DNA of 16,705 nucleotides from Octopus sinensis (Eukaryota): contig NW_021825114.1 of assembly GCF_006345805.1 (NCBI RefSeq), forward strand, positions 1 through 16,705. The letters run 5' to 3'. Below are positions 1,101 to 16,705 of this stretch, one piece after another (the stretch's first letter is position 1; each line of letters opens with the position of its first letter). The position numbers were made by a program, and so were the translations under genes. The notes beneath the pieces are model-generated. The model saw nothing but the letters and a program-made list of their open reading frames with translations. It ran no database searches and was not told where the DNA came from.

Positions 1101-1496
1101 TCGTTGCTTACTCTTTTAACAATTTATTAGTAGCAGCATGAGAAAAGTGACCATACCATGGCGCGACTAACGAAATCTTGCTTGCTGTTTGGCTTTTGAT
1201 GAATGCAAATCGGAGTTTAATGCAAATCATTACAACGTACAATGCCAGGTCTATGATGAAGGAATAGTCTCAATTAGCAGAGTTCTCCCCTTAAAAGATG
1301 AACTGTGTTTAGTCTACCAATGGTTTCTGGTATCCATTTTGATTGTTCTGTCCTTCCCCAAATCTTATTTGATGACAGCCAAGTATAATGCTCTGAGAAG
1401 AAATATAGGATATTTCTTACAGTTCTATATTTAAGAGATGTGAAATTATCTACATTATTTACATTTGACGGATATTTGTCTTCATCTTGTTTGTTA

Positions 1497-1540
1497 ACAC
1501 AACATTTCGGCTGATATACCCTCCAGCCTTCATCAGGTGT
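1497..1540 (-). ncRNA. Minimal type I hammerhead ribozyme (Penelope/retrozyme type)
   Basis: Minus strand reads ACAC-CTGATGA-A-GGCTGG-agggtata-TCAGCC-GAAA-TG-TT-GTGT: stem I ACAC/GTGT, intact CUGAUGA and GAAA cores, 6-bp stem II, vestigial stem III (ATGT, one change from palindromic ACGT), UH = UU. Confidence 0.75.
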
Positions 1541-1706
1541 CTTGACAAAAATTTGGAACTTGGGTTCTCATTCCTAAGGTATTTTACGATGTTATTATTA
1601 TTATTATTATTATATTATTATTATTATTATTATTCAGGTCACTATAATAATAATAACATCGAAGAATACCTTAGGAATGAGAGAACGGGTTCGAAATTTC
1701 TCCAAG

Positions 1707-1750
1707 ACACCTGATGAAGGCTGGAGTATATATCAACCGAAATGTTGTGT
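1707..1750 (+). ncRNA. Minimal type I hammerhead ribozyme (second, inverted copy)
   Basis: ACAC(1707)-CTGATGA(1711-1717)-A-GGCTGG-agtatata-TCAACC-GAAA(1739-1742)-TG-TT-GTGT; one stem II mismatch relative to the minus-strand copy. Confidence 0.7.
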
Positions 1751-2636
1751 TAACAACAAACAAGATGAGGACAAATATCCGTCAAATGCTTTTTAATCTT
1801 CAGTGTTTTTTATAAAAATAAGCCGTCGTTCTAATTGATGAAACAAGTTGAGAGCATTATAGTCGTTGTTTGGATAAAGAATTATTTGTCGTTGAAGGGC
1901 ATGCTGGACATGAAAACATTCTATGAAATGATTTCATTCTTTAGCTGAATTCGAAAATTCTTCAACCTGATTTAGATGATCTGAAATACCTGTAATTTTC
2001 CAATTTAATGATCTCATCATACTTATTTGCACCACTGATATATATATATGCGGACACATCATTCTTCTTTTTTGATTGAAATGCTCTTAACATAATATAT
2101 ATATATATTAAATTTGCTTTCGGTGACGCCAAAAATCTCATAAAAAAAGCTTAATAACACAGCAGTAATTTTGCATTTTGTATATAAGAGTGTCGGTGCT
2201 TAGTCCCAAAATAAACTATTCTTTAATTTAATCCAAGTACATGTCTACTTGCATTCCTGCCTGTATAATTAAATATATTGAACGCATTTGGTATTTTCAA
2301 TATATGGAACATATTTGCTTAGTTGTGGAAGAATTATTAAATTTATTAGAGTTGTATGTTCTGCAGGCACTCCTTATTGGAACTTTCAGTAGTTTTAATG
2401 GAACCTTCCTTCCAGATCAGAATGGCAAGACGATGTCTCTTATTACTTTCTTCTTACTCAAGCTAAACGGTAATAGAGGGAAGCGGCTAATATTTTGTGT
2501 CAGTTTTTATTCTAAATAAATGGCGGTTGTCACAACGAGGTGAAAATTACCAATAAGATACTCGCCTGCAAACTGATGTGTTAAAAGGAACTGCAGCAGC
2601 AGCAGCAGCAGGAACAACAACGACAACAACAATAAT

Positions 2637-5751: not shown

Positions 5752-6314
5752 ATAATTCTTTTCTACTCTAAGCACAAGGTGTGAAATTTGTGGCGAGTGG
5801 CCAGTCGATTAGATCGACCCCAGTGCGTAACTGGTACTTATTTGATCGATCCTGAAAGTATGAAAGGCAAAGTCGATCGCTGCGGAAATTGAACTCGGAA
5901 CGTAGCGGCGAACGAAGTACGTATTTCTTTACTACCCTAGAAGTGGCTAAACATAGAAAGGACAAATAAGGACAGACAAGGACAGTGCGTAACTGGTACT
6001 TATTTAATCGACCCTGAAAGGATGAAAGGCAAAGTCGACCTCGGCGGAATTTGAACTCAGAGCGTAACGGCAGACGAAATACCTATTTCGTTGTTCCCCA
6101 CAAGGGGATAAACACAGGGAGGACAAACAAGGACAGACAAACGGATTAAGTCGATTACATCGACCTCAGTGCGTAAGTGGTCCTTAATTTATCGACCTCG
6201 AAAGGATGAAAGGCAAAGTCGACCTCGGCGGAGTTTGAACTCAGAACATAACGGCAGACGAAATACCACTAGGCATTTCGCACTGCGTGCTAACGATTCT
6301 GCCAGCTCGCCGCC
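5752..6314 (-). mobile_element. tRNA-derived SINE with internal triplication (one head, three B-box/central-domain units, one tail)
   Basis: Minus-strand head GGCGGCGAGCTGGCAGAATCGTTAGC (A box) starts at 6314. B-box-like GAGTTCAAA(C/T)TCC and central motif GACTTTGCCTTTCATCCTTTC..GGTCGAT...GTACCAGT occur three times (anchor cagtgcgtaa at 5821, 5983, 6167). Tail ...cttgtgcttagagtagaaaaagaattatt. Confidence 0.85.
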
Positions 6315-15903: not shown

Positions 15904-16705
15904 CAGGGCACTGTTTTGGGACCACTACTGTTCATAATGGCCCTCTCAGACATGCCCTCAGCCACGCGGAGAGCCACGATCACAAGTTATGCAGATGATA
16001 CAAAAGTTTCACAGGCAATACAGAACCCTGAAGACACTAGGCACCTGCAATATGAGCTGGACGAAATTTACAAGTGGGCTGAAAAGAATAGCATGCAGTT
16101 CAATGCTGAAAAGTTTCAAGCTTTATACTATCAGCATGCAAAACTGAATGCAATACCCAAGGAATACACTGGACCCGGAGGGATTGCAATCCCAGAGGCA
16201 CAATCAGTGCGTGACCTGGGTATTCACATGAGTGATGACGCGACCTTTCATGTACATGTTGCTAAACTGACAGTGAAATGCAGACGCCTGGCTGGATGGA
16301 TTCTTAGAACCTTTAGAACAAGAGAACAAAAACCATGATGGTCCTCTGAAGACACTTGTCCTAAGTCACTTTGACTATTGCTCTCAGCTATGGTCACCAT
16401 CCAGTGTCAAGTTGATCACAGAACTTGAGGCGATCCAACGAAGCTACACGAAGAAGATAGCCTCTATGCAGATGTAAGCTACTGGGAAAGACTCAAGAGA
16501 TTAAAATTATATTCCCTGGAGCGTAGGCGGGAAAGATATGCCATAATATACATCTGGAAGATCCTGGAGGGAAGTGTCCTGAACTTGGCATCGAGAGTTA
16601 CGCAAACGCCAGAACTGGGTGCCACTGCGTGGTGCCTAGGAGTCCAAACTTGCCATCAAGATGTAGGACAAGATTCTGTGATAGCCTGGGCTTCCGAGGC
16701 CACAG
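15904..16705 (+). mobile_element. 5'-truncated CR1-group LINE, ORF2 reverse transcriptase (frameshifted as given; runs off the window end)
   Basis: QGTVLGPLLF (15904 on), YADD (15988-15999), W...N.MQFN..K and DLG motifs. After frameshifts it continues as LVLSHFDYCSQLWSP...LEAIQRSYTKKI...SYWERLKRLKLYSLERRRERYAIIYIWKILEG, typical of CR1-group ORF2 C-termini. Confidence 0.93.

What the first reader, a model, noticed from the sequence alone, without database searches (positions are those of the whole stretch)
1462..1788. Palindromic twin-hammerhead cassette: two outward-facing HHRs in a 330-bp inverted repeat
Seen: arms of about 140 bp in inverted orientation, each with a complete CUGAUGA/stem II/GAAA/UU/stem I hammerhead layout (1497-1540 minus, 1707-1750 plus). 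Known: minimal type I HHRs with a vestigial palindromic stem III occur in Penelope terminal repeats and non-autonomous retrozymes, and cleave mainly as dimers. Inference: a transcript from either strand carries one sense ribozyme preceded by its own antisense, so it would fold into a long dsRNA hairpin that masks the ribozyme. That makes it a candidate self-inhibiting ambisense ribozyme unit and an ADAR or Dicer substrate. Both copies share ATGT rather than ACGT in stem III, suggesting one arm was copied locally from the other by fold-back.
Basis: partly seen in the sequence, partly recalled or inferred. Interest (0 to 1): 0.75.

Follow-up and report, generated by a model that had tools for sequence, protein, structure and literature searches.

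The report
Penelope retrotransposon ends joined head-to-head

Summary
The inverted repeat and both minimal hammerhead motifs are there, but the unit is larger (1419-1788). It is one insertion of a Penelope/Poseidon-type retrotransposon with roughly 27,000 ribozyme-bearing ends in this genome. Long copies join the same terminal repeat to an RT plus GIY-YIG-like ORF. Of 70 sampled copies, 44 carry a head-to-head inverted piece and none a tail-to-tail one. In 35 of 38 pairs exactly one arm has the 33-nt tail, as here. Opposite-strand hammerhead pairs, inverted repeats and one-sided tails are published Penelope features. The shared ATGT is ordinary CpG decay, so it does not show local copying, and it weakens both ribozymes. 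The cassette has no promoter of its own, so a dedicated self-inhibiting switch is not supported. Two family-level points are of interest. A tRNA-like A/B-box segment sits inside the repeat of the protein-coding element; 18 of 39 solo copies start at its 5' edge, and the sense strand lacks T4 runs. In 15 of 35 pairs neither arm contains the other, which favours twin priming over fold-back. Expression, editing and cleavage were not tested. This scan noted the same family before on other DNA.

The parts
1419..1643 (-). Left arm: 5'-truncated terminal repeat (pLTR) of the Penelope-like element, with tail
   Evidence: matches family positions -56 to +120 around the hammerhead core, then the (AAT)n tract
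1419..1451 (-). 33-nt optional tail, on this arm only
   Evidence: left arm ends at +120, right arm at +77; 3' ends cluster at 83-96 and 113-120
1496..1541 (-). Minimal type I hammerhead motif; stems I and II intact; ACGU palindrome decayed to AUGU; predicted cut after 1501
   Evidence: cut site inferred from hammerhead numbering, not tested
1592..1634 (-). (AAT)n tract between the tRNA-like segment and the body
   Evidence: TTA array; same tract in family copies
1632..1643 (-). Last 12 nt of the family's tRNA-like segment; A and B boxes are absent from this insertion
   Evidence: sequence against family majority
1644..1788 (+). Right arm: 5'-truncated pLTR starting in the AAT tract, no tail, ending a few bases short of the usual tail-less end
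1706..1751 (+). Minimal type I hammerhead motif; C-A mismatch in stem II; AUGU in place of ACGU; predicted cut after 1746
   Evidence: cut site inferred, not tested

Best explanation
The cassette is a single decayed insertion of a Penelope/Poseidon-type retrotransposon, made of two 5'-truncated copies of its hammerhead-bearing terminal repeat joined head-to-head, likely produced when the element's protein primed reverse transcription from both strands of one cut, and its ribozymes are predicted to be silent passengers. Shown: the family identity, the head-to-head geometry, the tail on one arm only, and target-site duplications around whole pairs elsewhere in the family. Inferred (about 65%): the protein makes a staggered cut in AT-rich DNA and starts one cDNA at each of two internal RNA sites, giving one tailed and one tail-less arm from the same template lineage, whose 5'-most ends are then joined. 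Inferred (about 60%): most short copies come from transcripts that start at a tRNA-like polymerase III promoter inside the terminal repeat. This insertion kept only 12 nt of that segment. Each ribozyme here lies on its own strand, so the two cannot form the active dimer in one transcript.
For: Copy number: an exact 32-mer of the core has 2,632 genomic matches, reversed control 0; 12 of 122 arms sampled at another anchor carry it, giving about 27,000 arms; 2 insertions were seen in 200 kb of evenly spaced sample. Autonomous link: copies run upstream into a GIY-YIG-like C-terminus and an RT with YVDD and DKG motifs. L200 and L211 show the repeat running into the ORF's N-terminus. The C-terminal part is 32% identical over 291 aa to an 836-aa Anolis protein (E 9e-42). 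A 52%-identical relative keeps the peptide that the hammerhead encodes (1 of 90 proteins scanned). Geometry: 44 of 70 with a head-to-head piece, 0 of 70 tail-to-tail; 35 of 38 pairs tailed on one arm, 18.9 expected, p 3e-8; solos 13 tailed, 13 not. Duplications of 6 bp or more flank 19 of 38 pairs against 2.1 in permutations. Arms of a pair share non-CpG variants, 40 vs 10.3 +/- 3.0 in 66 pairs. Tail-less arm longer in 15, tailed arm longer in 7, equal in 13 of 35. Neutral decay: 52 of 122 arms have a broken core. In print: opposite-strand min-HHR pairs 100-700 bp apart (PMC4209133); inverted 5'-truncated copy and one-sided tail (PMC8557442; PMC3846280); two internal RT starts and extension of both strands by PAc (PMC11167929).
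Against: No clear target-site duplication at this locus (best match 3 bp), and the right arm ends at +77, short of the 83-96 cluster. Here the right arm is a subset of the left, so fold-back fits this locus. Asymmetric deletions in palindrome centres could mimic the 15 non-nested pairs, and gene conversion could explain shared variants. Pfam GIY-YIG does not hit the endonuclease, and no tree was built. ARAGORN and Rfam do not call the head a tRNA. A weak palindrome covers the same -7 to +4 positions where 5' ends cluster.
Confidence: 0.85

Rival explanations
1. Same element, but the second arm was made by fold-back: the first cDNA self-primes at a short palindrome or microhomology and copies itself until it is cut or joined near the tail-less site.
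For: Arms share non-CpG variants. Junctions cluster at a palindrome at the head's 5' edge, and 5 of 11 short copies scored have the inverted loop letters there. Self-priming was proposed for Adineta Penelopes (PMC3846280). At this locus the right arm is nested in the left.
Against: In 15 of 35 pairs the tail-less arm has 5' sequence that the tailed arm lacks, while lacking the tail; this needs a later deletion in each case. Tail-less ends fall at the same place in solos and in pairs.
Confidence: 0.3
2. The short copies are a separate tRNA-headed SINE that borrows Penelope enzymes, and its head merely inserted into some Penelope copies.
For: A head 20-mer has 4,938 exact matches against 852 for a 20-mer just upstream. 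5' ends pile up at the head.
Against: All 30 copies fetched by a query made mostly of the endonuclease end (with about 45 nt of the head) carry the head at the same offset, about 35 nt after the stop codon. Copies fetched by an RT query that reach that far carry it too. The short unit's body is the ORF's own 5' end. The head is a fixed part of the autonomous repeat.
Confidence: 0.15
3. One reading: a selected ambisense cassette in which the hairpin masks the ribozyme and feeds ADAR or Dicer.
For: The hairpin is very stable and buries both cores. Any read-through transcript would form about 140 bp of imperfect double strand.
Against: Thousands of such pairs arise as by-products. The arms are 88.5% identical, no closer than the family's pair average of 90.4%. 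Both palindromes and one stem II have decayed. There is no promoter in the cassette, and no host gene was recognised in the window.
Confidence: 0.05
4. Assembly fold-back artefact.
For: The window is a whole small unplaced contig, and no listed contig spans the centre.
Against: The arms differ at 14 positions plus gaps; both flanks enter the arms in 3 of 4 runs; the design is family-wide with target-site duplications.
Confidence: 0.01

Closest known systems
Penelope/Poseidon-clade PLEs, e.g. PAc (Poseidon_Ac) of Anolis (PMC11167929, parts 1-2 of 4 read plus passages)
   Same: Single RT plus C-terminal endonuclease ORF, hammerhead overlapping the ORF's 5' end, two 3' ends separated by a 30-40 nt tail, AT-rich targets. 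An 836-aa Anolis protein, probably PAc, is 40% identical to the RT part and 32% to the C-terminal part.
   Different: The repeat here holds a tRNA-like A/B-box segment and an (AAT)n tract; the ORF's first ATG lies 34 nt before the hammerhead core. That paper's main text has no occurrence of 'tRNA' or 'polymerase III' and does not discuss inverted insertions.
Minimal hammerheads of metazoan PLE repeats (Cervera and de la Pena 2014, PMC4209133, parts 1-2 of 4 read)
   Same: Short helix I, extra nucleotide between 9 and 10.1, G10.1-C11.1 pair, palindromic 15.2-16.2, and pairs on opposite strands 100-700 bp apart.
   Different: Helix II is 5 bp with a 10-nt loop; the window copies have lost the perfect palindrome.
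Inverted pLTR insertions of Adineta Pen2a and Naiad/Penelope (PMC3846280 and PMC8557442, passages read)
   Same: Head-to-head inverted 5'-truncated copy, tail at one end, about 9-10 bp target-site duplication, palindromes at junctions.
   Different: Here most insertions are reduced to the two repeat ends, and the sample is large enough to count tail asymmetry and non-nested arms.
Schistosoma hammerhead SINE-like repeats (review PMC6765202, passages) and TRIMp3 elements Cassandra, Helenus, Ajax (PMC10886601, passages)
   Same: A polymerase III-type promoter coupled to a hammerhead, or placed inside a terminal repeat.
   Different: Those elements are non-autonomous; here the tRNA-like segment is part of a protein-coding element's own repeat.
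Non-LTR retrozymes (bioRxiv 10.64898/2026.07.22.740005, part 1 of 5 and passages read)
   Same: Type I hammerhead in PLE-derived non-coding units.
   Different: Retrozymes are head-to-tail tandem arrays; these copies are solo or head-to-head.

Membership tests
EN+ Penelope-like element (Penelope/Poseidon type) | RT with C-terminal GIY-YIG endonuclease in one ORF | tested here: met
   RVT_1 hit E 1.2e-9; YVDD and DKG motifs; C-terminus aligns to the Anolis protein, E 9e-42. Pfam GIY-YIG itself gave no hit. All copies read are broken by stops or frameshifts.
EN+ Penelope-like element (Penelope/Poseidon type) | Pseudo-LTR at both ends of the ORF, holding a hammerhead | tested here: met
   Repeat follows the ORF end and precedes the ORF start in L200 and L211
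EN+ Penelope-like element (Penelope/Poseidon type) | Inverted 5'-truncated copy and optional 30-40 nt tail at one end | tested here: met
   44 of 70; 35 of 38 pairs; the window shows the same
EN+ Penelope-like element (Penelope/Poseidon type) | Target-site duplication around the unit | tested here: inconclusive
   Met in 19 of 38 family pairs against 2.1 by chance; not found at this locus
EN+ Penelope-like element (Penelope/Poseidon type) | Phylogenetic placement in the Poseidon clade | not tested
   No tree built; placement rests on similarity and on lack of similarity to the other PLE family seen
Minimal type I hammerhead | CUGANGA and GAAA core with helices I and II | tested here: met
   the commonest non-CpG variant inside the core is at the free N7 position (18 of 197)
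Minimal type I hammerhead | Palindromic 15.1-16.1 segment for dimer formation | tested here: not met
   Family majority ACGU; both window copies AUGU, which would allow only wobble pairs
Minimal type I hammerhead | Self-cleavage | not testable with these tools
tRNA-derived SINE / polymerase III unit | tRNA-like head with A and B boxes | tested here: inconclusive
   Family majority has both box motifs (box consensus recalled); best score against 27 distinct tRNA calls from 30 host loci 41.5 vs 28.3 +/- 1.9 in 300 shuffles; ARAGORN and Rfam negative. Absent from this insertion.
tRNA-derived SINE / polymerase III unit | Copies begin at the head's 5' edge | tested here: met
   18 of 39 solo copies end at -8 to +4, a 14-fold higher rate per base than elsewhere (window chosen after seeing the data)
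tRNA-derived SINE / polymerase III unit | Non-autonomous origin separate from the partner element | tested here: not met
   The head is a fixed part of the protein-coding element's repeat
tRNA-derived SINE / polymerase III unit | Transcription by polymerase III | not testable with these tools
   Indirect only: no T4 run on the sense strand
Non-LTR retrozyme | Head-to-tail tandem array of hammerhead units | tested here: not met
   Arms are inverted; the family is mostly solo or head-to-head

The most novel reading that the evidence does not exclude
A protein-coding Penelope retrotransposon is driven by RNA polymerase III from a tRNA-derived promoter inside its own terminal repeat. The promoter makes both the terminator-free full-length RNA and tens of thousands of short SINE-like copies, and each insertion is made by twin priming from two internal start sites, which explains the long-unexplained head-to-head structure of Penelope insertions.
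Probability: 0.3. Interest if true: 0.75.

Novelty: new variant of a known kind. Interest (0 to 1): 0.42.

Why it matters
The cassette itself is ordinary: it should be annotated as a Penelope insertion, not as a ribozyme switch. The family matters for two reasons. First, how Penelope elements make head-to-head insertions with a one-sided tail is described as undefined in the papers read. The counts here (35 of 38 one-sided, 15 of 35 non-nested, shared variants, one duplication around the pair) give a testable twin-priming model that fits the two start sites shown for PAc. Second, a tRNA-type promoter inside an autonomous element's repeat would be a route by which a retrotransposon sheds its own SINE. 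Thousands of such hairpins could also be a source of double-stranded RNA in the host, which was not tested.

Tried and rejected
Rfam gave no hammerhead match and no tRNA match on one head copy. ARAGORN found no tRNA in 12 loci or in the family majority down to threshold 80. A Pfam GIY-YIG search of the genome returned mainly another PLE family; none of 30 plus 15 loci matched this repeat. The RNA lay was placed by my error on the 3' part of the ORF in L200, not on the repeat. It shows only reads 85-95% alike in both orientations in two runs of one study of another organism, with no pile-up of ends. A metagenome scan with P0008, meant to see whether relatives carry a tRNA-like segment, found no relative. 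The copy estimate of 139,000 was rejected: I had left out ten loci already fetched, all with the exact core; restores them. Conservation of hammerhead parts among copies showed no sign of selection and is biased by the anchor. The 1994 paper on octopus tRNA-derived SINEs is not held, so whether the head equals one of those families is open. Paper searches that found no description of a tRNA-type promoter in a Penelope repeat; of twin priming in Penelope: (listings only). Subscription journals, Repbase and Dfam were not searchable, and no supplements were read; a repeat library in the supplement of PMC13282606 may hold this family.

Full report
Observation. The arms at 1462-1604 and 1644-1788 align as an inverted repeat with 128 identities in 142 aligned bases, and fold far better than shuffles (z -25.7). 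Each arm has a minimal hammerhead layout: 5-bp stem I, CUGAUGA, an extra A, 5-bp stem II, GAAA and UGUU. Rfam reported no hammerhead. The right flank is essentially single-copy. Contigs from 3 of 4 public runs carry each flank 29 letters into its arm, slightly under the tool's bridging rule.

The family. One arm had 3,239 first-look candidates in the 2.72-Gb genome. An exact 32-mer of the core occurs 2,632 times, control 0. Among 122 arms sampled at a different anchor 12 carry it, giving about 27,000 arms; 2 insertions in 200 kb agree roughly. All anchored samples come from the first 111 Mb of contig C1. Copies are about 94% identical to their majority. That the host is an octopus is my inference from recalled repeat families, not a tool result.

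What the family is. Of 70 hammerhead-anchored copies several continue upstream into a reading frame that ends like a GIY-YIG endonuclease. Walking further gave an RT with YVDD and DKG motifs, RVT_1 by Pfam, and ~830-aa homologues including an Anolis protein that is probably PAc. In L200 and L211 the repeat runs straight into the ORF's N-terminus, so the arm is the pseudo-LTR and the hammerhead overlaps the first codons. One 52%-identical relative keeps the matching peptide (1 of 90 scanned). Every copy read has stops or frameshifts.

Why a palindrome. 44 of 70 copies have an inverted piece directly upstream and none downstream. 3' ends fall in two groups, 83-96 and 113-120 bases from the core. 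In 35 of 38 pairs one arm is long and one short (18.9 expected, p 3e-8); solos split 13 to 13. Direct repeats of 6 bp or more bracket 19 of 38 pairs against 2.1 in permutations, so a pair is one insertion. The window has the tail on the left arm only but no clear duplication. All this is described for Penelope elements: opposite-strand minimal hammerheads 100-700 bp apart (PMC4209133), and inverted truncated copies with a one-sided tail (PMC8557442; PMC3846280).

How the arms were made. In 66 pairs (from 70 plus 86 loci; L272, L284, L286 and L287 dropped as duplicates) the arms share 40 non-CpG variants against 10.3 +/- 3.0 when shuffled, but CpG changes at chance level, 23 against 18.6 +/- 3.7. 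So the arms come from one template lineage, or were later homogenised, and the shared ATGT proves nothing: a random pair shares at least one CpG change 24% of the time, and T at that site was on one arm in 20 pairs and on both in 1. It is the only variant the window's arms share. Fold-back predicts that the tailed arm contains the other. In 15 of 35 pairs the tail-less arm reaches further 5', in 7 the tailed arm does, and 13 are equal. PAc cuts and extends both strands and starts reverse transcription at two sites that bound the tail (PMC11167929). I therefore infer twin priming, one start site per strand (about 65%). Later asymmetric deletions in the palindrome centre are the main caveat, and this locus alone fits either model.

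The tRNA-like segment. About 35 nt after the stop codon the repeat has a 78-nt segment with A-box and B-box motifs (box consensus recalled). It scores 41.5 against host tRNAs, shuffles 28.3 +/- 1.9, maximum 36 (only some isotypes were sampled, best hit Arg). tRNA finders do not call it. It is at a fixed offset in 30 of 30 endonuclease-end copies (the query held part of it). A 20-mer in it has 4,938 exact matches against 852 just upstream. Of 100 head-anchored matches (3 tandem duplicates dropped), 39 were solo; 18 of these begin at -8 to +4, 14 times the rate elsewhere (window chosen after the fact). The majority line has no T4 run over 2.4 kb: 2.5 +/- 1.3 expected by synonymous shuffling (p 0.05; 0.08 by triplet shuffling), while two other PLE ORFs in the genome have 9 and 10. 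This fits a polymerase III promoter but is indirect. A short palindrome covers the same positions and could cause the ends by itself, as palindromes mark repeat starts in Adineta. The window insertion keeps only 12 nt of this segment.

Function of the cassette. The two ribozymes are on opposite strands and cannot pair in one transcript. Both have lost the ACGU palindrome and one has a stem II mismatch. In the hairpin the cores are fully paired. Published minimal hammerheads are inactive as monomers and weak as dimers, and PAc's needs its protein. 52 of 122 family arms have a broken core. No host gene was recognised in the window. Expression, editing and cleavage are untested because my RNA lay missed the repeat.

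Earlier notes of this scan, read after my own tests, reach the same family and promoter reading on other DNA. They are unchecked AI notes and add no evidence. A search by sequence found none.

Verdict. Real observation, known design, ordinary locus. The family is a new variant of a known kind through its tRNA-like segment, and it offers a countable test of how Penelope inversions form.

Noticed in passing
L151-L165: A second, younger PLE family with uninterrupted ~780-aa RT plus GIY-YIG frames; in L151 and L155 a ~479-aa frame lies upstream and overlaps it. No similarity to this repeat.
   Followed up: partly
G000 C1:110-116 Mb: About 30 exact core matches in 5.3 Mb, against about 70 in the preceding 110 Mb: a local hot spot of the family.
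   Followed up: no
L059, L070, L132, L139, L008, L011: Many solo copies start in an (AAT)n tract that is the tail of another, LINE-like repeat, suggesting insertion into or joining at AAT microsatellites.
   Followed up: no
P0008 residues 17-32: A distant relative keeps the peptide encoded by the hammerhead's core and stem I, so ribozyme and protein share the same bases across a deep split.
   Followed up: partly
window 5821-6283: Three 73-100% similar units of another interspersed repeat, 162 and 184 bp apart; recalled as an abundant SINE-like family, not tested.
   Followed up: no
window 15904-16335: Fragment of a LINE-type reverse transcriptase, RVT_1 E 3.4e-9.
   Followed up: partly
L283, L284, L286, L287: The same inverted pair recurs in four nearby loci, a local duplication.
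   Followed up: no
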